Below are positions 2,782-8,654 of a stretch of 64,000 bases of DNA, one piece after another. The stretch lies in IMG/VR virus record IMGVR_UViG_3300017917_002116, positions 32,001 to 96,000 of that record; one strand, written 5' to 3'. The DNA is from a virus. The notes under the pieces are model-generated. The model was not told where the DNA came from and ran no database searches. It saw only the letters and a list, made by a program, of their open reading frames with translations. Numbering within the stretch: position 1 is the first letter of the stretch; each line of letters starts with the position of its first letter. A program made the position numbers and the translations under genes.

Positions 2782-3630
2782 ATGACAACCGCAAATCCAC
2801 AAGCAAAACAATACCTAACGAACAGGGAATTACTAAAAGAAATACATCTGAGCAAGAATCTGTATAGCAGTTATTCCAAACCAGAATACTGTGATTATGA
2901 TCTAATTTTGCCAGATATTTCCAAAATCAACATACGAACAACGGCTGAGGCCAAGCGTAATCGTGCTCTACGGCTTAGTCAACAAGCTCTGGCAGAAGCA
3001 CAAAAAACTAACCCGAAAACCAAGTTGGCAGACGTCGAAATAGACTATAAAAAAGTAGCTAAGACAGACGTTGTATTCAGGATTATGACACATGATCATA
3101 TTCCCCTAGAACCCGGACGCAAAAAGACTCCCAAGAGTCGAGGCGACCATCATACCAAAGTAAATTTTCCACCATATCAACATTTTAAATTTGACGATAA
3201 CGATCAACTAATATGTGTGGGCAAAAGTCATTGGAAGGGTGATATAGACACTGGCGTGTTCTCTATGGAACACGGCACAATGACCAATAAACTAGCAAAG
3301 AGTTTTATGCTACTGGTTGAAAAATACAGTATGCGTTTTAACTGGCGCGGTTATACCTACGTAGACGAAATGCGTAGTCAAGCCTTGCTACAATTATCAC
3401 AGATAGGACTACAATTCGATGAATCAAAATCGCAGAACCCTTTTGCGTATTATACTGCCGCCATTGATAACAGTTTCACTCGTATCCTTAATATTGAGAA
3501 GAAAAACCAAATGATACGAGACGATCTCTTGATTGAGATCGGCAGTAACCCCAGCTTTACTCGTCAGTTCGAACATGAGTCCATGATCAAAGACGAGCGC
3601 GAGCGCATGGCTAACTTGAAAGATGAATAA
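2782..3630 (+). CDS. gp55: Late-transcription sigma factor (T4 gp55-like)
   Basis: YLTNRELL, NWRGYTYVDEM and FDESKSQNPFAYYT motifs; synteny with gp47/gp46. Confidence 0.85.
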   Translation: MTTANPQAKQYLTNRELLKEIHLSKNLYSSYSKPEYCDYDLILPDISKINIRTTAEAKRNRALRLSQQALAEAQKTNPKTKLADVEIDYKKVAKTDVVFRIMTHDHIPLEPGRKKTPKSRGDHHTKVNFPPYQHFKFDDNDQLICVGKSHWKGDIDTGVFSMEHGTMTNKLAKSFMLLVEKYSMRFNWRGYTYVDEMRSQALLQLSQIGLQFDESKSQNPFAYYTAAIDNSFTRILNIEKKNQMIRDDLLIEIGSNPSFTRQFEHESMIKDERERMANLKDE

Positions 3631-4649
3631 TGTCTGACCTCTTTAAACGTGCTGCCGTATTCACGGACATACATTTTGGTATGCGTCAAAACAGCAAGGC
3701 GCATAACGATGATTGTACAGATTTTGTAAAATGGTTCTGTGCCACTGCCAGAGAACATGATTGTGATGTAGCAATCTTCATGGGCGACTGGCATCACCAT
3801 CGTGCCACAGTTAATGTCAGTACCTTAAACTATACCGTGGATGCTATTGATTATATCAGCCGGCACTTTGAACGTTTCTTTTTTATTCCTGGCAATCACG
3901 ACCTCTATTATAGAGAGAAGCGTGACCTGAACAGTGTACCATTTATTCGAAATCAAAAGAACATTGTTTTGGTAAATGATATACACACCGAAGGTAGCGT
4001 TAGCCTTGTACCTTGGTTAGTGGGCGATGAGTGGACTAAGATGAAGCGACTGGACAGTCGCTATGTGTTTGGTCACTTTGAACTGCCCAGCTTTAAAATG
4101 AATGCCATGGTTGAAATGCCTGATCACGGCGGACTCAACAGTGAACATTTTCCCAATCAGGAATATGTGTTTAGTGGACACTTCCACTTGCGTCAGCAGC
4201 GCGGCAATGTTCACTATACTGGCAATGCCTTTCCGCATAACTATGCCGATGCTTGGGATGACAATCGTGGTATGATGATATTTGAGTGGGGCAGTGAACC
4301 CAAATACATTGCCTGGCCCGATGCACCAAAATTCAGAACTATAGATCTAACAAAATTGATCGAAGATCCAGCCAAGTATATGGATAAGAATACATTTATT
4401 CGTATTACTTGTGATGCAGATGTCAGCTATGAAGAAGCCACATTTTTAAAAGAGAACTGGCAAGAAGAATACAACCTGCGTGAAATTACACTAATACCCA
4501 GCAAGCGTGAAGAACACGCACAAGACTGGAGTGGTGATGTTCACTTCGAAAGTGTAGATCAGATTGTACTAACACAATTGGCAGCAATTGATAGTGATGT
4601 AGTTGATAAGCAAGTTCTTATTGACATTTATAATAGTTTAACTGTATAA
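3630..4649 (+). CDS. gp47: Recombination endonuclease subunit (Mre11/SbcD-like)
   Basis: Metallophosphoesterase motifs DIHFG, GD, GNHD, GHF, SGHFH. Confidence 0.93.
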   Translation: MSDLFKRAAVFTDIHFGMRQNSKAHNDDCTDFVKWFCATAREHDCDVAIFMGDWHHHRATVNVSTLNYTVDAIDYISRHFERFFFIPGNHDLYYREKRDLNSVPFIRNQKNIVLVNDIHTEGSVSLVPWLVGDEWTKMKRLDSRYVFGHFELPSFKMNAMVEMPDHGGLNSEHFPNQEYVFSGHFHLRQQRGNVHYTGNAFPHNYADAWDDNRGMMIFEWGSEPKYIAWPDAPKFRTIDLTKLIEDPAKYMDKNTFIRITCDADVSYEEATFLKENWQEEYNLREITLIPSKREEHAQDWSGDVHFESVDQIVLTQLAAIDSDVVDKQVLIDIYNSLTV

Positions 4650-4657
4650 TAACCTAG

Positions 4658-6433
4658 ATGATTAAGATTAAAAATCTTACCATTCGCAACTTTCTCTCTG
4701 TAGGCAATGTTACCCAAGCACTAAGGTTTGATCAACATGGTTTAACTTTGGTCTTGGGTAATAACCTTGATCTTGGCGGAGATGGCAGCAGAAATGGTAC
4801 TGGCAAAACAACCATTGTTAATGCACTAAGCTATGCACTCTATGGCGGCGCTTTAACAAATATTCGCAAAGACAACCTCATCAATAAGACCAACAACAAA
4901 GGCATGTTGGTAACTGTTGAGTTTGACAGTAATGGTCATAGCTATCGCATTGAGCGCGGCCGCAAACCAAACGTTCTGCGGTTTATTGTAGACGATCAAG
5001 AACGTGATCAAGGGTCTACAGAAGAACAACAAGGCGAAAACAAAGAAACCCAAACAGAGATAGAAAAACTCTTGGGAATGAGTCACGACATGTTCAAACA
5101 CATTGTGGCGTTAAATACTTTTACTGAACCGTTCCTTAGCCTTAAGGCCAACGACCAGCGTAATATTATTGAACAACTATTAGGTATCACACAACTAAGC
5201 GAAAAGGCAGATCTGCTCAAAGACTTGATTAAGAACACCAAGGATCAGATCAAAGAAGAAGAATATCGTATAAAGGCTGTAACTGATGCAAACAATAAAA
5301 TTAAAACATCTATTGAAGATCTCGAGCGTCGTAGTCGTCTTTGGCAGGCCAAGCAGAGAGAAGATCTTGAGAAACTTGGGGCTACGATAAACGAACTACT
5401 GAACATAGACATTGAGCAAGAACTTGCCAATCACAAGGCTCTAGCAAAGTGGCGTGAGAACGAAAAGGAACTAAAGCGCCTTAACAAAGATCTTGCCACA
5501 CATCAGAGTGCAGTAAAGCGTGTAACACAACAATTAAGCGAGCTGGCTGGTGCACAGAGTAAGGCACTAGAACATAAATGTCATGCCTGTGGCCAAGATC
5601 TACATGATGAAACACAGGCCAGTATGATGTCTGAGTTAAACGAAGCCATCAGTCTACTGACTGCCGAACTTGAAAACGAGCAATCAAATATCAAACAAAT
5701 TGAAAAAAATATCAAGGAATTTGGTAAGATTGGCGTAACACCAAAAGTCAAATACGACAACATTGACGATGCTGTGAATCATAAGAGCACACTGGAAACC
5801 ATACAGGATCAGTTTGAACGTAGGCATCTTGATGTTGACCCCTATGTCGAACAAATAGATCATTTGAAAACAACCGCCATAGAAGAAGTTAATTTTGAAA
5901 CAATAAATCGTCTTACCAAGCTCAATGAGCACCAGGAATTCTTGTTGAAGTTGCTAACTAGTAAAGACAGTTTTGTTCGCAAGAGAATTATCGAACAAAA
6001 CCTGAGCTATCTAAATCACAGGCTAGCTTATTATTTGGAGAAATTGGCATTACCACATGAAGTTAAATTCCGCAGTGACCTAGAAGTTGATATTACTCAA
6101 CTGGGCCAAGAGTTTGACTTTGACAACCTGAGTCGTGGTGAGCGCAATAGATTGATCCTAGGTTTAAGCTGGGCATTCCGTGATGTGTTCGAAAGTCTAA
6201 ATCGACCACTCAATTTGCTGTTTATTGACGAAATGATTGACAGCGGCATGGACGCCAACGGTGTTGATAGCTCACTGGGCTTGTTGAAGAAAATGAGCAG
6301 AGAACAAAAGAAAAATATTTTCTTAATTAGTCACCGGGATGAACTGGTGGGCCGTGTAAATAACATACTACAAGTAGTTAAAGAAAACGGTTTTACTACA
6401 TTCAATACGGATGTAGAAATGGTAGAAGCATAA
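4658..6433 (+). CDS. gp46: Recombination ATPase subunit (Rad50/SbcC-like)
   Basis: Walker A NGTGKTT, coiled coil with CHAC zinc hook, LSRGE signature, LLFIDE Walker B, ISH. Confidence 0.95.
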   Translation: MIKIKNLTIRNFLSVGNVTQALRFDQHGLTLVLGNNLDLGGDGSRNGTGKTTIVNALSYALYGGALTNIRKDNLINKTNNKGMLVTVEFDSNGHSYRIERGRKPNVLRFIVDDQERDQGSTEEQQGENKETQTEIEKLLGMSHDMFKHIVALNTFTEPFLSLKANDQRNIIEQLLGITQLSEKADLLKDLIKNTKDQIKEEEYRIKAVTDANNKIKTSIEDLERRSRLWQAKQREDLEKLGATINELLNIDIEQELANHKALAKWRENEKELKRLNKDLATHQSAVKRVTQQLSELAGAQSKALEHKCHACGQDLHDETQASMMSELNEAISLLTAELENEQSNIKQIEKNIKEFGKIGVTPKVKYDNIDDAVNHKSTLETIQDQFERRHLDVDPYVEQIDHLKTTAIEEVNFETINRLTKLNEHQEFLLKLLTSKDSFVRKRIIEQNLSYLNHRLAYYLEKLALPHEVKFRSDLEVDITQLGQEFDFDNLSRGERNRLILGLSWAFRDVFESLNRPLNLLFIDEMIDSGMDANGVDSSLGLLKKMSREQKKNIFLISHRDELVGRVNNILQVVKENGFTTFNTDVEMVEA

Positions 6434-6442
6434 GGACAATAA

Positions 6443-6649
6443 ATGACAGAAGAAATTGGAATCCCAAACCCACACGAACACATTGTACAACAATATGAAA
6501 TCTATTTGGCAGAACATCAGAAGTTTACTGAGAAGGGTGTCAAGGCCGCTGCGGGTCGCGCACGCAAAGCCCTACAAGAAATGAGCAAGGCTATTAAACT
6601 GCGCCGTAAAGAAATCACAGATCAAAAGGCTGCATTAACTGCTAAATGA
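6443..6649 (+). CDS. Small basic helical protein resembling Hc1 (histone H1-like) family
   Basis: EKGVKAAAGRARKALQEMSK...RRKEI resembles the EKGNKAAAQRVR core of chlamydial Hc1. Confidence 0.65.
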   Translation: MTEEIGIPNPHEHIVQQYEIYLAEHQKFTEKGVKAAAGRARKALQEMSKAIKLRRKEITDQKAALTAK

Positions 6650-7074
6650 CATGGCTCTATCAAGGCAACGTTATTGAAGAATTGCCTGAAGATTGTGTTG
6701 GTTTTGTCTACATCATTACTAACACAATCACAGGCCGCATGTATATTGGCAAAAAACTGGCAAAATTTAGTAAAACCACCTATAAAACTATAAAACTCAA
6801 AAACGGCAAAAAGAAACGTAAAAAAATTCGTGGCAAAATAGAATCAGACTGGCAAACCTACTACGGCTCCAACGACGAACTTAAACGTGACGTCGAACAA
6901 CTAGGCGCAGACAAATTTATCCGTGAAATACTACATTACTGCAATAGTAAGGCACTAGCATCATACTACGAGGCTAAAGAACAATTTGATAGGCGAGTAC
7001 TGGAATCAACAGACTACTATAATGGGCACATACAGGTTCGCGTTCACGGCTCCCACATTATAAACAAAATTTAA
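6646..7074 (+). CDS. GIY-YIG (Seg-like) nuclease, catalytic domain only
   Basis: GFVYIITN..TGRMYIGKK, WQTYYGS, conserved Glu (YYEAKEQF) and YYN; Lys/Arg-rich insert; no C-terminal DNA-binding repeats. Confidence 0.85.
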   Translation: MTWLYQGNVIEELPEDCVGFVYIITNTITGRMYIGKKLAKFSKTTYKTIKLKNGKKKRKKIRGKIESDWQTYYGSNDELKRDVEQLGADKFIREILHYCNSKALASYYEAKEQFDRRVLESTDYYNGHIQVRVHGSHIINKI

Positions 7075-7566
7075 GACACTACTGATAATGCTCGCACCGG
7101 CAAGTTGATTAGGTGCCTGAATCCCTGGTGATGTCGCGGGGTAGGAATTTCCGAGCAGTAGCGGAGACATGATTGCCACTATCCTGGTGTTGCCAGGACG
7201 AAGCACTAGACTTGAAAGGTGCTGGCAAGTGTATGTATAGTCAAAAAGAGCAGGCAACGGTGAGCTATTACGACCTGCAAGAATTAGGGTGTTAATCTAT
7301 CAGCTAACTAATTCTGCGCCAAAGTGCTAGGTAAAAAGGTACAGCATGACCGCCTTTACCCTATTAGGGTTCTAGTGATAGATTGCGATAATGGGCCTCT
7401 GACAGGTATTTCATTATTTTTCATTTAGCCCTTAACAGGGCTAAGTGCGACTGCAAAACCTTGACAAATATCTTTAATTAGAGTACCTTGTTGAAATATC
7501 AAAGAAGACTAAAAAGAATTGTGTTTTGCGTAAGCAAAATATAATTCTAGTTGTTCTCCGAACAAC
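7075..7566 (+). ncRNA. Candidate large structured non-coding RNA of unknown family
   Basis: About 490 nt without a credible ORF in a gene-dense genome. At least 10 helices found by eye, including a three-way junction and a 9-bp loop-to-downstream pairing. Mismatches resolve as G-U on the + strand. Confidence 0.6.
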
Positions 7567-7809
7567 TTATTCGAAACCCTGTGTTAGAACTTGTTTGGGC
7601 TTTACACCCCTATCTATATTAATCTTATCCTTAAGGATATTCGTGAATATTTTGCGCTCGTCATAGGTTAAATTCCAAAGATCATTATAACTTTGTCCCG
7701 AGTATATGGCCAGCGATGCAATATCTTCTATAATGGCTTTTGTATCTTGTTCTAGTGATTTAAGTAGTCCTAGAATCTCTGGGCCTGATTTCAGACTCAA
7801 AAGCCTCAT
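7567..7809 (-). CDS. gp51-like baseplate-hub/tail assembly chaperone (possible -1 frameshift extension of the upstream ORF)
   Basis: SYNDLWNLTYDERK motif; follows the gp26-like gene with ATGA overlap. Confidence 0.7.
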   Translation of the reverse strand: MRLLSLKSGPEILGLLKSLEQDTKAIIEDIASLAIYSGQSYNDLWNLTYDERKIFTNILKDKINIDRGVKPKQVLTQGFE

Positions 7810-8654
7810 GCGAAAAAAGTTGTAGGATTAAGATCTAGACTGGACTTGTAAATCTTGCCGCATTTTTGGCACTGTACATCAAAGTCTTTTTTCACACCAT
7901 AGTTATTGGTGGCCATGATGTTTTCTTCTAATTTTTTGTACTCGGGTCTGCTTAGATCACGTACCCATTCCTCAATCATCTTGCTGTCGGACACCACTGT
8001 ACCATCAGGCAACAGCACTGTTTCTATACTGTCAGCGACCACCTTAATACTTTGATCTGTCAAGGCCTGATAGCTTTTGCTTAGTATGTCTACTTTTTCT
8101 TTTTCACTGGCATTGCGTTGTTCTGCAATCTGTATGTTTCTGATTTGTTCGTACTGTACCCAGTTCAAATCCAGTAGATGCTTTACTGTAACTGGCTTGA
8201 CATATACCTTGACGCCACTGTCATGCTCAACAGGTGGCACATCATCCAGCGTTTTGATACTGGCTATCAAGGAATTTAAGTCTACACTTACATCGTTTTT
8301 TACAGCTTCTCCGCAATCACAGGTTGTACTAACGTCTAGCTTTTCACCATAGGTGCAACGTTTAACAGCGACAAGAATAGCATCCAGGTCTGCGCTGGGC
8401 ATGTTTTCTGGATCTTTGATGCAGGGCGCACAACTCTTTATTAACTCAGCAATGGCATTGCCGTTTAGTAATGCATCGGCATTTTTTAACATGAGTTCAT
8501 CTTTGGCAGTCAGAGGATAAACTGGAATTTCTCCCATGTCATTAAGCTCTGCAGGTTTTTGAGCATAACCCTTGCCCCTACTAGGTAATTTAATCCAAAG
8601 ACCGGGTTTTCTAAAATAGGCCTTTAAAGGATTAACTTGTTGTTGATTTTCCAC
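7806..8654 (-). CDS. gp26-like baseplate-hub assembly protein
   Basis: NPLKAYFR, IKLPS.G, PLTAKDELML, DLDAILVAV, two CxC/CxxC motifs, C-terminal FF. GTG start at 8654 after GGAG. Confidence 0.8.
   Translation of the reverse strand: MENQQQVNPLKAYFRKPGLWIKLPSRGKGYAQKPAELNDMGEIPVYPLTAKDELMLKNADALLNGNAIAELIKSCAPCIKDPENMPSADLDAILVAVKRCTYGEKLDVSTTCDCGEAVKNDVSVDLNSLIASIKTLDDVPPVEHDSGVKVYVKPVTVKHLLDLNWVQYEQIRNIQIAEQRNASEKEKVDILSKSYQALTDQSIKVVADSIETVLLPDGTVVSDSKMIEEWVRDLSRPEYKKLEENIMATNNYGVKKDFDVQCQKCGKIYKSSLDLNPTTFFA

What the first reader, a model, noticed from the sequence alone, without database searches (positions are those of the whole stretch)
6443..7566. Stand-alone GIY-YIG nuclease followed by a ~490-nt pseudoknotted non-coding RNA: candidate novel ribonucleoprotein system
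Seen: this is the largest non-coding gap in the window. It starts at the stop codon of a 142-aa GIY-YIG protein, is GC-richer than other intergenic DNA, and is almost fully pairable. A 5' domain is closed by TGCTC 7089-93/GAGCA 7248-52 and contains GCACC 7094-98/GGTGC 7112-16 and TTTCCG 7148-53/CGGAGA 7162-67. It also holds a three-way junction: TTGCCA 7173-78/TGGCAA 7223-28 encloses TCCTGG 7182-87/CCAGGA 7193-98 and GCACT 7203-07/GGTGC 7218-22. Next, the hairpin AGAATTAG 7280-87/CTAATTCT 7308-15 has a loop AATCTATCA 7294-7302 that is the exact complement of TGATAGATT 7376-84, a pseudoknot. GGTAAA 7330-35/TTTACC 7355-60 surrounds GGTACAGCATGACCGCC. An 11-bp hairpin at 7422-7447 is flanked by the repeat TGACA..TAT, and a 15-bp GTAA-capped hairpin lies at 7515-7548. 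Mismatches resolve as G-U on the + strand, favouring a + strand RNA. Established: homing GIY-YIG enzymes (I-TevI, SegA-G) carry a C-terminal DNA-binding domain. This one has none and instead has a KKKRKKIR insert. Inference: the RNA could scaffold or guide the nuclease (by analogy to IscB/omegaRNA), or act as a ribozyme or origin RNA for recombination-dependent replication, since it sits at the end of the gp55-gp47-gp46 operon. I could not match it to a known RNA family by eye.
Basis: partly seen in the sequence, partly recalled or inferred. Interest (0 to 1): 0.85.

Follow-up and report, generated by a model that had tools for sequence, protein, structure and literature searches.

The report
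Full-length Polynucleobacter-1 twin-box phage RNA
The gene-free gap behind a small nuclease gene of this uncultured T4-like phage encodes a real, about 480-base, doubly knotted non-coding RNA; its first third is the orphan Rfam motif Polynucleobacter-1 catalogued in 2010, the rest is uncatalogued, the nuclease looks like a neighbour rather than a partner, and the RNA's job is still unknown.

Summary
Window 7075-7566 is the largest non-coding gap and encodes a + strand structured RNA. The claim that no known family matches is wrong: 7089-7232 scores 55.1 bits (cut-off 37) against Rfam RF01718, Polynucleobacter-1. Its discoverers noted in 2010 that it lies downstream of homologues of cyanophage gene PSSM2_218. 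I confirmed that PSSM2_218 is this GIY-YIG family.

The remaining 330 nt are not in Rfam, but they are homologous and covary in 66 non-redundant phage loci.

The nuclease-RNA partnership is not supported:
- Eight cultured phages carry the nuclease without the RNA.
- Variovorax phage V45v66 and one Comamonadaceae contig carry the RNA away from any such gene.
- Five loci have another ORF between the two.
- No nuclease residue tracks the twin-box word.

Function is unknown. My best reading is an autonomous trans-acting RNA that holds two copies of an outside partner.

This scan has already reported the same RNA family on many other genomes, as "twin-box / extended Polynucleobacter-1 RNA".

The parts
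6646..7074 (+). Upstream neighbour: 142-aa catalytic-domain-only GIY-YIG protein. It is a homologue of P-SSM2 PSSM2_218, which GenBank often mislabels 'NAD synthetase'.
   Evidence: PF19835 E 1.6e-32, matched over the full profile. phrog_447. The GIY, YIG, R58, E94 and N126 positions are invariant in alignment A8. 37% identity to PSSM2_218.
7089..7232 (+). 5' domain, the Polynucleobacter-1 motif: hairpins 7094-98/7112-16 and 7148-53/7162-67, and a three-way junction 7173-78/7223-28 that encloses 7182-87/7193-98 and 7203-07/7218-22.
   Evidence: Rfam RF01718, 55.1 bits against a cut-off of 37. In 62 distinct sequences, 91.8% of cells are paired and 29 of 34 pairs show double changes; slid controls reach at most 45%.
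7243..7249 (+). Conserved A-rich linker (AAAAAGA) between the 5' domain and the 3' core.
   Evidence: Conservation profile over 66 sequences.
7250..7278 (+). H1 hairpin: 7250-54 with 7274-78, plus inner pairs 7258-59/7271-72.
   Evidence: 100% paired, with 3 of 5 pairs showing double changes, in 20 relatives on an unfitted alignment. The equivalent helix in the majority clade is 88.9% paired.
7280..7315 (+). H2 hairpin (7280-87/7308-15). Its loop supplies the 5' strand of pseudoknot 1.
   Evidence: Perfect 8 bp in the window. In the majority clade all 12 pairs show double changes and 88% of cells are paired, against 36-59% when slid.
7295..7383 (+). Pseudoknot 1: loop 7295-7301 pairs with 7377-7383.
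   Evidence: 5 of 7 pairs show double changes. In the majority clade 93.9% of cells are paired and 6 of 7 pairs show double changes, against 20-48% when slid.
7318..7350 (+). Pseudoknot 2: 7318-22 pairs with 7346-50 inside the conserved GGTAC...GACCGCC loop. In the window itself only 3 of 5 pairs form.
   Evidence: 94% paired in near relatives and 98.7% paired with 3 pairs showing double changes in the majority clade. It was the top covariation helix in a blind scan.
7327..7375 (+). Three-way junction of the 3' core: H4 7327-30/7372-75, H5 7335-39/7353-57 and a small hairpin 7359-61/7367-69.
   Evidence: 93-94% paired. All 4 H4 pairs show double changes.
7400..7406 (+). Twin box 1 (TGACAGG).
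   Evidence: It co-varies in parallel with box 2. The mutual information equals the column entropy in the majority clade. 41 of 41 majority sequences are identical in 7 of 7 positions; the window is identical in 5 of 7.
7424..7445 (+). H7: the conserved hairpin between the boxes, followed by conserved GTGCGAC.
   Evidence: 97.5% paired, with U-G pairs that fit only the + strand. 95.6% paired in the majority clade.
7462..7468 (+). Twin box 2 (TGACAAA).
7471..7514 (+). AT-rich spacer. GC is 29% over 7471-7566.
7515..7566 (+). Terminal hairpins: a 15-bp GTAA-capped hairpin 7515-7548 and a hairpin 7549-55/7560-66. These are the likely 3' end of the RNA and of the operon.
   Evidence: The only terminator-like site in 6300-8000. 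90% paired in 11 relatives.

Best explanation
Window 7086 to about 7566 (+) is the full-length form of the Polynucleobacter-1 RNA, called 'twin-box RNA' in earlier notes of this scan. It is about 480 nt long, non-coding and multi-domain.

Shown:
- The fold. It comprises a 5' domain that is the Rfam motif, a 3' core with a three-way junction and two pseudoknots, a conserved hairpin flanked by two direct boxes that change together, and terminal hairpins.
- The + strand polarity.
- Its presence once in the 115-kb record.
- Its fixed place directly 3' of the GIY-YIG gene in this clade.
- That the RNA and the nuclease each exist without the other elsewhere.

Inferred:
- In this phage the RNA is made by read-through from the gp47-gp46-Hc1-like-GIY-YIG operon. 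In relatives the RNA starts between -9 and +43 nt from the stop codon, which leaves no room for a promoter.
- It ends at the 7515-7548 hairpin.
- It is an autonomous RNA gene that acts in trans. The knotted core is a scaffold that presents two identical short words about 55-60 nt apart, either to two copies of an outside partner or to a dimer. That partner could be a phage-specific protein or nucleic acid that co-evolves with the word.
- It is not a guide for the neighbouring nuclease.
For: - Family membership: RF01718 match at 55.1 bits against a cut-off of 37.
- Structure: covariation in the 5' domain. In the 3' core, on alignments not fitted to the structure, 94.2% of cells are paired against at most 50.5% when slid, 19 of 39 pairs show double changes, and the covariation score is 0.357 against at most 0.092. 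The majority clade gives an independent repeat.
- Strand: G-U pairs and the fold z-score favour the + strand.
- Prevalence: the RNA is present in 63 of 80 GIY-YIG loci by the 5' model and in 9 more, plus 1 weak hit, by the 3' core model.
- Placement: 57 of 63 start between -9 and +43 nt from the stop codon.
- Autonomy: eight cultured phages carry the nuclease homologue but no RNA. Phage V45v66 carries the RNA with H2, PK1, PK2, H5 and H7 intact, 51 kb from its GIY-YIG gene and antisense between a terS-like ORF and terL. A Comamonadaceae contig has the 5' domain with no GIY-YIG, gp46 or gp47 within 8 kb. Five loci have an ORF of 264-341 aa between the nuclease gene and the RNA.
- Twin boxes: box-to-box mutual information equals the column entropy, while the next best column in the RNA reaches 0.43-0.60 bit. 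No complementary copy lies in cis. No GIY-YIG residue tracks the word.
Against: - The ends, processing and abundance of the RNA are therefore unknown.
- The trans-partner idea rests only on the parallel co-variation of the boxes. In the window's own subclade the boxes are identical in only 4-7 of 7 positions (5 of 7 in the window).
- Near-universal adjacency to the GIY-YIG gene in this clade (at least 72 of 80 loci) could still reflect a functional tie that my tests cannot see.
- The mutual-information test against the protein is weak, with 48 related sequences and no correction for the tree.
Confidence: 0.55

Rival explanations
1. Replication-origin element. The RNA stays hybridised to, or pairs back onto, its own DNA and primes DNA synthesis in the manner of ColE1 RNA II or T4 ori(uvsY). 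The twin boxes would act as iteron-like sites, or would allow slipped RNA:DNA pairing, and the AT-rich stretch 7471-7514 would be the unwinding element.
For: - The RNA is single-copy in the 115-kb record.
- Identical direct repeats flank a hairpin.
- A stretch of 29% GC lies just 3' of box 2.
- The element sits next to the recombination genes gp46 and gp47.
- A direct-repeat identity with no partner in cis is what pairing of RNA box 1 with the DNA template at box 2 would require.
- Several earlier notes of this scan favour this reading. They are leads only.
Against: - The cumulative GC skew has no turn near 7.3 kb.
- Here the element sits where transcription converges, not where it diverges.
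- In V45v66 it lies inside the terS-terL late region.
- Two covarying pseudoknots and a 5' domain that varies between clades are more than a primer needs.
- No initiator gene is linked to it.
Confidence: 0.15
2. The RNA scaffolds or guides the adjacent catalytic-domain-only GIY-YIG nuclease, as omega RNA does for IscB or TnpB, or it regulates that nuclease.
For: - The RNA lies directly behind the GIY-YIG gene in at least 72 of 80 related loci and sometimes overlaps its stop codon.
- The protein has no DNA-binding domain.
- The boxes are a fast-evolving short segment.
Against: - The same domain-only protein occurs in 493 phage records. Eight cultured phages that I searched in full carry it without the RNA.
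- The RNA occurs without an adjacent nuclease in V45v66 and in a Comamonadaceae contig.
- Unrelated ORFs can separate the two.
- No protein column tracks the box word.
- The variable word is present twice and lies inside the RNA, not as a terminal guide.
Confidence: 0.07
3. A cis-acting 3' UTR element. It protects the gp47-gp46-GIY-YIG mRNA from 3' exonucleases, terminates transcription between convergent units, or tunes expression of the upstream gene.
For: - The RNA starts at or within the stop codon of the upstream gene.
- It ends in terminator-like hairpins.
Against: - About 480 nt with two pseudoknots and conserved loops is far more than such a role needs.
- The RNA stands alone, or antisense to its neighbours, in V45v66 and in the Comamonadaceae contig.
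- The twin boxes are left unexplained.
Confidence: 0.08
4. A new ribozyme, either self-processing or acting on another substrate. The knotted conserved core GGTAC...GACCGCC would be its active site.
For: - Its size, pseudoknots and invariant unpaired nucleotides are typical of large ribozymes.
Against: - No Rfam ribozyme or intron model matches at E up to 1.
- No conserved cleavage-site logic was recognised.
- The resemblance is purely structural.
Confidence: 0.07

Closest known systems
Polynucleobacter-1 RNA motif (Rfam RF01718; Weinberg et al. 2010, Genome Biol 11:R31, PMC2864571)
   Same: Window 7089-7232 matches the full 141-position model above the cut-off. It has the same helices, the same freshwater and Burkholderiales-linked habitat, and the same place downstream of PSSM2_218-like genes.
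   Different: - The published motif is only the first third of the RNA. The authors found it in no purified phage and proposed no function.
- Here it sits in a T4-like phage record and continues for another 330 nt or so of covarying structure that is absent from Rfam.
- The 3' core is the more widespread part. It is found in 9 loci and in phage V45v66, where the 5' motif is not recognisable.
Large orphan structured RNAs of bacteria and phages (GOLLD RF01998, ROOL RF03087, OLE, raiA)
   Same: It is several hundred nucleotides long, ornate, supported by covariation, often phage-borne and of unknown function. This comparison rests on my own knowledge.
   Different: No sequence or model match. The twin boxes and the double-pseudoknot core are its own features.
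IscB/TnpB omega RNA (HEARO) nuclease-guide systems
   Same: A structured RNA is encoded next to a small nuclease gene.
   Different: - In those systems the protein and RNA are obligatory partners and the RNA carries a terminal guide.
- Here each occurs without the other.
- The nuclease fold is GIY-YIG, not RuvC or HNH.
- No guide was found.
ColE1 RNA II and T4 ori(uvsY)/ori(34) R-loop primers
   Same: A structured or persistent transcript next to an AT-rich stretch could prime replication.
   Different: There is no skew turn, no linked initiator, convergent transcription at this site, and much more tertiary structure than those primers have.
Protein-sponge RNAs with repeated sites (CsrB/RsmZ)
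   Same: Repeated identical short single-stranded words sit around hairpins. The commonest word context (ACUCGGAUGAU) resembles the CsrA SELEX consensus, which I recall from memory.
   Different: Many family members, including the window, lack GGA in the box. There are only two sites, and the word changes between phages, which points to a co-evolving partner rather than a conserved one.
Group I introns carrying GIY-YIG homing endonuclease genes (I-TevI) and free-standing Seg endonucleases of T4
   Same: A GIY-YIG gene of the SegE-like family lies beside a structured RNA in a T4-like phage.
   Different: - No intron model matches.
- The gene is not inside the RNA.
- The protein lacks the DNA-binding domain.
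- Its position after gp46 is conserved in 60 of 76 loci rather than sporadic.

Membership tests
Rfam RF01718 Polynucleobacter-1 | Score at or above the curated gathering cut-off over the whole model. | tested here: met
   55.1 bits against 37, model positions 1-141.
Rfam RF01718 Polynucleobacter-1 | Helices kept by compensatory change. | tested here: met
   91.8% of cells paired and 29 of 34 pairs with double changes. The alignment was fitted to the model; slid controls reach at most 45%.
Rfam RF01718 Polynucleobacter-1 | Lies downstream of GOS11034 / PSSM2_218-like genes, as the discoverers noted. | tested here: met
   The supplement text. PSSM2_218 is the tblastn hit of the window's GIY-YIG protein.
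GIY-YIG nuclease superfamily (PF19835 SegE-like) | Profile match and the catalytic GIY, YIG, Arg, Glu and Asn positions. | tested here: met
   E 1.6e-32 over profile positions 1-123 of 123. Y22, Y33/G35, R58, E94 and N126 are invariant in alignment A8.
GIY-YIG nuclease superfamily (PF19835 SegE-like) | Nuclease activity. | not testable with these tools
   No close solved structure (best PDB E 0.34). Needs an assay.
Homing endonuclease (I-TevI or Seg type) | C-terminal DNA-binding domain joined to the catalytic domain. | tested here: not met
   The 142 aa are covered almost wholly by the catalytic domain. The same holds for homologues in other phages.
Homing endonuclease (I-TevI or Seg type) | Sporadic, mobile distribution. 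| tested here: inconclusive
   The position after gp46 is kept in 60 of 76 related loci. The context differs in Melnitz, ACP17 and P-SSM2.
RNA-guided nuclease module (omega RNA type) | Protein and RNA always occur together. | tested here: not met
   Nuclease without RNA in eight cultured phages. RNA without an adjacent nuclease in V45v66 and in contig L109.
RNA-guided nuclease module (omega RNA type) | A variable guide segment that co-evolves with, or is used by, the protein. | tested here: not met
   The only variable segment is the twin box. It lies inside the RNA and is duplicated. The best mutual information with any GIY-YIG column is 0.41-0.59 bit against a box entropy of 0.9-1.0, and the gp46 control scores as high or higher.
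Replication origin with RNA primer | Strand-composition switch at the site. | tested here: not met
   The cumulative GC skew rises steadily through 7 kb. This is weak evidence in phages.
Replication origin with RNA primer | AT-rich unwinding element and repeated initiator sites. | tested here: inconclusive
   29% GC over 7471-7566. There are two direct boxes, but no initiator is known.
Replication origin with RNA primer | DNA synthesis starts here. | not testable with these tools
   Needs origin mapping.
Known ribozymes, introns and riboswitches (Rfam 15) | A match to any other covariance model. | tested here: not met
   RF01718 is the only hit at E up to 1 in 6000-8500, and the only hit at gathering scores in the whole window.

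The most novel reading that the evidence does not exclude
The knotted core with its two always-matching words is a new kind of phage device. One possibility is an RNA-primed replication start in which the RNA re-pairs with its own DNA through the boxes. Another is a scaffold RNA that grips a dimeric phage factor, conceivably still the GIY-YIG nuclease, and directs it. Either would give large T4-like phages an RNA-based mechanism with no described counterpart.
Probability: 0.2. Interest if true: 0.85.

Novelty: new member of a known kind. Interest (0 to 1): 0.55.

Why it matters
An orphan Rfam motif from 2010 turns out to be the head of a much larger RNA. That RNA is doubly pseudoknotted and is carried by many uncultured T4-like giant phages of lakes and seas. 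RNAs of this size and intricacy are usually ribozymes or cores of ribonucleoprotein machines.

The two words that always change together give a concrete handle for finding the partner. The member in Variovorax phage V45v66 (GenBank PV558790.1, which names Variovorax sp. SCN45 as host) may offer a culturable system for testing function.

For annotation, this work gives three things:
- The true extent of the RNA.
- A 3' core model that finds members which Rfam misses.
- The point that the 'NAD synthetase' label on the neighbouring gene family is wrong, because the family is GIY-YIG.

Tried and rejected
- blastn of 6443-7566 against 50,697 phage records found no match.
- No tRNA or tmRNA in the window.
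It is 52% paired and clashes with H1.
- Window-specific hairpin ATAATG/CATTAT 7388-93/7413-18: not kept in relatives.
- Search for a cis partner of the twin boxes: no complementary 7-mer lies at a fixed place, and no third column shows comparable mutual information.
- Antiparallel pairing of box 1 with box 2, and self-pairing of box 2: not consistent with the variants seen. This is my reasoning on the data.
- Sigma-70 promoter reading of the boxes: the spacing and the variants do not fit. The promoter-like site 7061-7089 would start transcription inside P1.
- Hc1-like protein as a partner: it is present in only 17 of 76 loci.
- Co-variation of GIY-YIG with the boxes: none above the gp46 control.
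- Melnitz: one weak hit without H5, judged not a member.
- Three of the 21 DNA-pattern hits in viral contigs, and three of the four in bacterial genomes, were chance matches.
- The apparent larger gap 359-1037 is coding. It is covered by an open-ended minus-strand ORF.
- PDB sequence search with the nuclease found nothing significant.
Full report
**What is there**

The window comes from a 115-kb IMG/VR virus record that CheckV rates as about one third complete. On the + strand lie:
- gp47 (3630-4649);
- gp46 (4658-6433);
- a 68-aa Hc1-like basic protein (6443-6649, PF07432);
- a 142-aa protein (6646-7074) that matches the SegE-type GIY-YIG catalytic domain over its whole length (PF19835, E 1.6e-32).

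The next genes are on the minus strand: an 80-aa ORF ending at 7567 and a baseplate hub gene. Positions 7075-7566 hold no credible ORF. This is the largest non-coding gap of the window, because the apparently larger gap at 359-1037 is covered by an open-ended minus-strand ORF. The + strand folds far better than shuffled sequence (z -4.24). The minus strand does not (z -1.66).

**A known family, in part**

In fact 7089-7232 (+) matches Rfam RF01718, Polynucleobacter-1, over all 141 model positions at 55.1 bits (cut-off 37). It is the only Rfam hit in the window.

The discovery paper (Weinberg et al. 2010, PMC2864571) lists the motif as a probable RNA from Burkholderiales and from fresh water and estuaries. 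Its supplement says that most examples lie downstream of genes of family GOS11034. It notes that these have possible homology to PSSM2_218 of cyanophage P-SSM2, that the 3' half is not always detected, and that no purified phage carried the motif.

I checked the homology. The window's GIY-YIG protein hits P-SSM2 exactly at PSSM2_218 (37% identity, E 3e-10). The held literature contains no functional study of the motif.

**The RNA is much longer than the Rfam motif**

- A DNA pattern from the motif found 18 true instances in viral contigs. Every one with enough flanking sequence has gp46 and the GIY-YIG gene upstream.
- Independently, I fetched the 80 closest GIY-YIG loci (69-82% identity).
- A covariance model built and rebuilt from these loci (R1, R2) finds the motif in 63 of the 80. 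All hits are on the gene's strand. 57 start between -9 and +43 nt from the stop codon, one starts at +130, and five start after an inserted ORF of 264-341 aa.
- In most loci another 260-375 nt without any ORF follow the motif.
- These downstream stretches form one similarity cluster and align with islands of near-invariant sequence.
- A model of the 3' core alone (R3) recovers the RNA in nine further GIY-YIG loci, plus one weak hit, where the 5' motif is not recognisable.
- At least 72 of the 80 loci therefore carry the RNA, and the 3' core is the more constant part.

**Structure**

The 5' domain covaries strongly. It is 91.8% paired against at most 45% when the partners are slid, and 29 of 34 pairs show double changes.

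For the 3' part I used MAFFT alignments that were not fitted to any structure.
- In the 20 nearest relatives, including the window, 39 proposed pairs are 94.2% paired against at most 50.5% when slid. 19 pairs show compensatory double changes. The covariation score is 0.357 against at most 0.092.
- In a separate clade of 46 sequences the same helices are 88-99% paired, against 16-66% when slid.

The supported elements in window coordinates are:
- H1: 7250-54/7274-78.
- H2: 7280-87/7308-15.
- Pseudoknot 1: the H2 loop 7295-7301 with 7377-83.
- Pseudoknot 2: 7318-22 with 7346-50, inside the invariant GGTAC...GACCGCC loop. The window itself forms only 3 of the 5 pairs.
- A three-way junction: H4 7327-30/7372-75, H5 7335-39/7353-57 and a small hairpin 7359-61/7367-69.
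- The conserved hairpin H7: 7424-31/7438-45, with U-G pairs that fit only the + strand.
- The terminal hairpins 7515-48 and 7549-66.

The closing helix 7089-93/7248-52 is 52% paired and clashes with H1. The register of GGTAAA/TTTACC is wrong.

**Twin boxes**

H7 is flanked by two direct repeats, at 7400-06 (TGACAGG) and 7462-68 (TGACAAA).
- In the majority clade the two 7-nt words are identical in 41 of 41 sequences, although the word itself differs between phages. At least nine versions occur.
- The mutual information between equivalent box columns equals their entropy (0.89-1.0 bit). The next best column anywhere in the RNA reaches 0.43-0.60 bit.
- No complementary copy sits at a fixed place in cis.
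- In the window's own subclade the identity is looser, at 4-7 of 7 positions (5 of 7 in the window).

What reads the boxes remains unexplained.

**Partner or neighbour?**

The evidence favours neighbour.
- The catalytic-domain-only protein is a family trait found in 493 phage records. The 'KKKRKKIR insert' is a four-residue lengthening of a basic loop that holds the invariant K56 and R58.
- Eight cultured phages with a homologue gave no convincing hit to the RNA models anywhere in their genomes. They are Melnitz, ACP17, P-SSM2, C48C1, phiN3, immuto 2-6A, Ps15 and S-SRM01.
- Variovorax phage V45v66 has a divergent but clear member. The R3 score is modest (18.3 bits), but H2, both pseudoknots, H5 and H7 are all present, and the H2 and pseudoknot strands lie outside the modelled region. 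This member lies 51 kb from the phage's GIY-YIG gene, between a terS-like ORF and terL, and antisense to them.
- A Comamonadaceae MAG contig has the 5' domain with no GIY-YIG, gp46 or gp47 within 8 kb. It sits next to DUF6641 and DUF6876 genes.
- Other ORFs can sit between the gene and the RNA.
- No GIY-YIG column tracks the box word better than gp46 control columns do.

**Origin reading**

Several earlier notes of this scan prefer an RNA-primed origin. Here the cumulative GC skew shows no turn at 7 kb, and transcription converges on the site. An AT-rich stretch follows box 2, and the direct-repeat identity would fit RNA-to-DNA re-pairing. I keep this as the main rival, at about 0.15.

**Verdict**

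By Rfam's own test it is a member of a known orphan family, of which only the first third was described. The nuclease-guide idea is not supported, and the function is unknown.

Earlier agents of this scan reached the same description on many other genomes. My tests here were independent of theirs. One of their leads, members in E. coli giant phages, could not be confirmed on PBECO4 or 121Q.

Noticed in passing
window 6443-6649 (+): A 68-aa histone-H1-like (Hc1, PF07432, E 2.4e-12) basic protein lies between gp46 and the GIY-YIG gene, with overlapping stop and start codons. A homologue is detectable in only 17 of 76 related loci.
   Followed up: partly
L111:1140-1714 (+) = PV558790.1 about 98.46-99.04 kb: Variovorax phage V45v66 carries a divergent member of the RNA family in a gap of about 580 nt between a terS-like ORF and terL, antisense to both. 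Its two boxes are only partly identical. It may offer a culturable system.
   Followed up: partly
L109:1-130 (-), contig CANFVA010000033.1: A Comamonadaceae MAG contig holds the Polynucleobacter-1 5' domain, cut off by the contig end. It has about 200 nt of non-coding DNA upstream and DUF6641 and DUF6876 genes nearby, with no GIY-YIG, gp46 or gp47. It could be a mobile island or a phage fragment binned with the MAG.
   Followed up: partly
window 7078-7088; L109:118-140 (-): A short word, ACTACTGA, precedes the first helix of the RNA both in the window and in the stand-alone copy of L109. Close relatives keep ACTGATAAT. It might be a processing or start signal.
   Followed up: no
L039:3426-4451, L042:3372-4274, L044:3306-4322, L068:2438-3232, L087:3312-4238: In five related phages an ORF of 264-341 aa is inserted between the GIY-YIG gene and the RNA. 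One is methyltransferase-like (PF08003). The three others scanned (L039, L042, L068) had no Pfam match; the L044 ORF was not scanned.
   Followed up: partly
Related loci, region equivalent to window 7515-7548: In the majority clade the penultimate hairpin carries a conserved internal loop and GNRA cap, of the form YGA-GC-GNRA-GC-GAAR, which suggests tandem G-A pairs. The window has replaced it with a plain 15-bp GTAA hairpin.
   Followed up: no
GenBank records of 493 phages (e.g. P-SSM2 PSSM2_218): The GIY-YIG family of the window's 142-aa protein is widely annotated as 'NAD synthetase' (phrog_447). The Pfam match and the invariant catalytic residues say GIY-YIG nuclease.
   Followed up: yes
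window 7006-7257 (-): An 83-aa minus-strand ORF overlaps the end of the GIY-YIG gene and the RNA 5' domain. The conservation pattern is that of an RNA, so the ORF is almost certainly spurious.
   Followed up: partly
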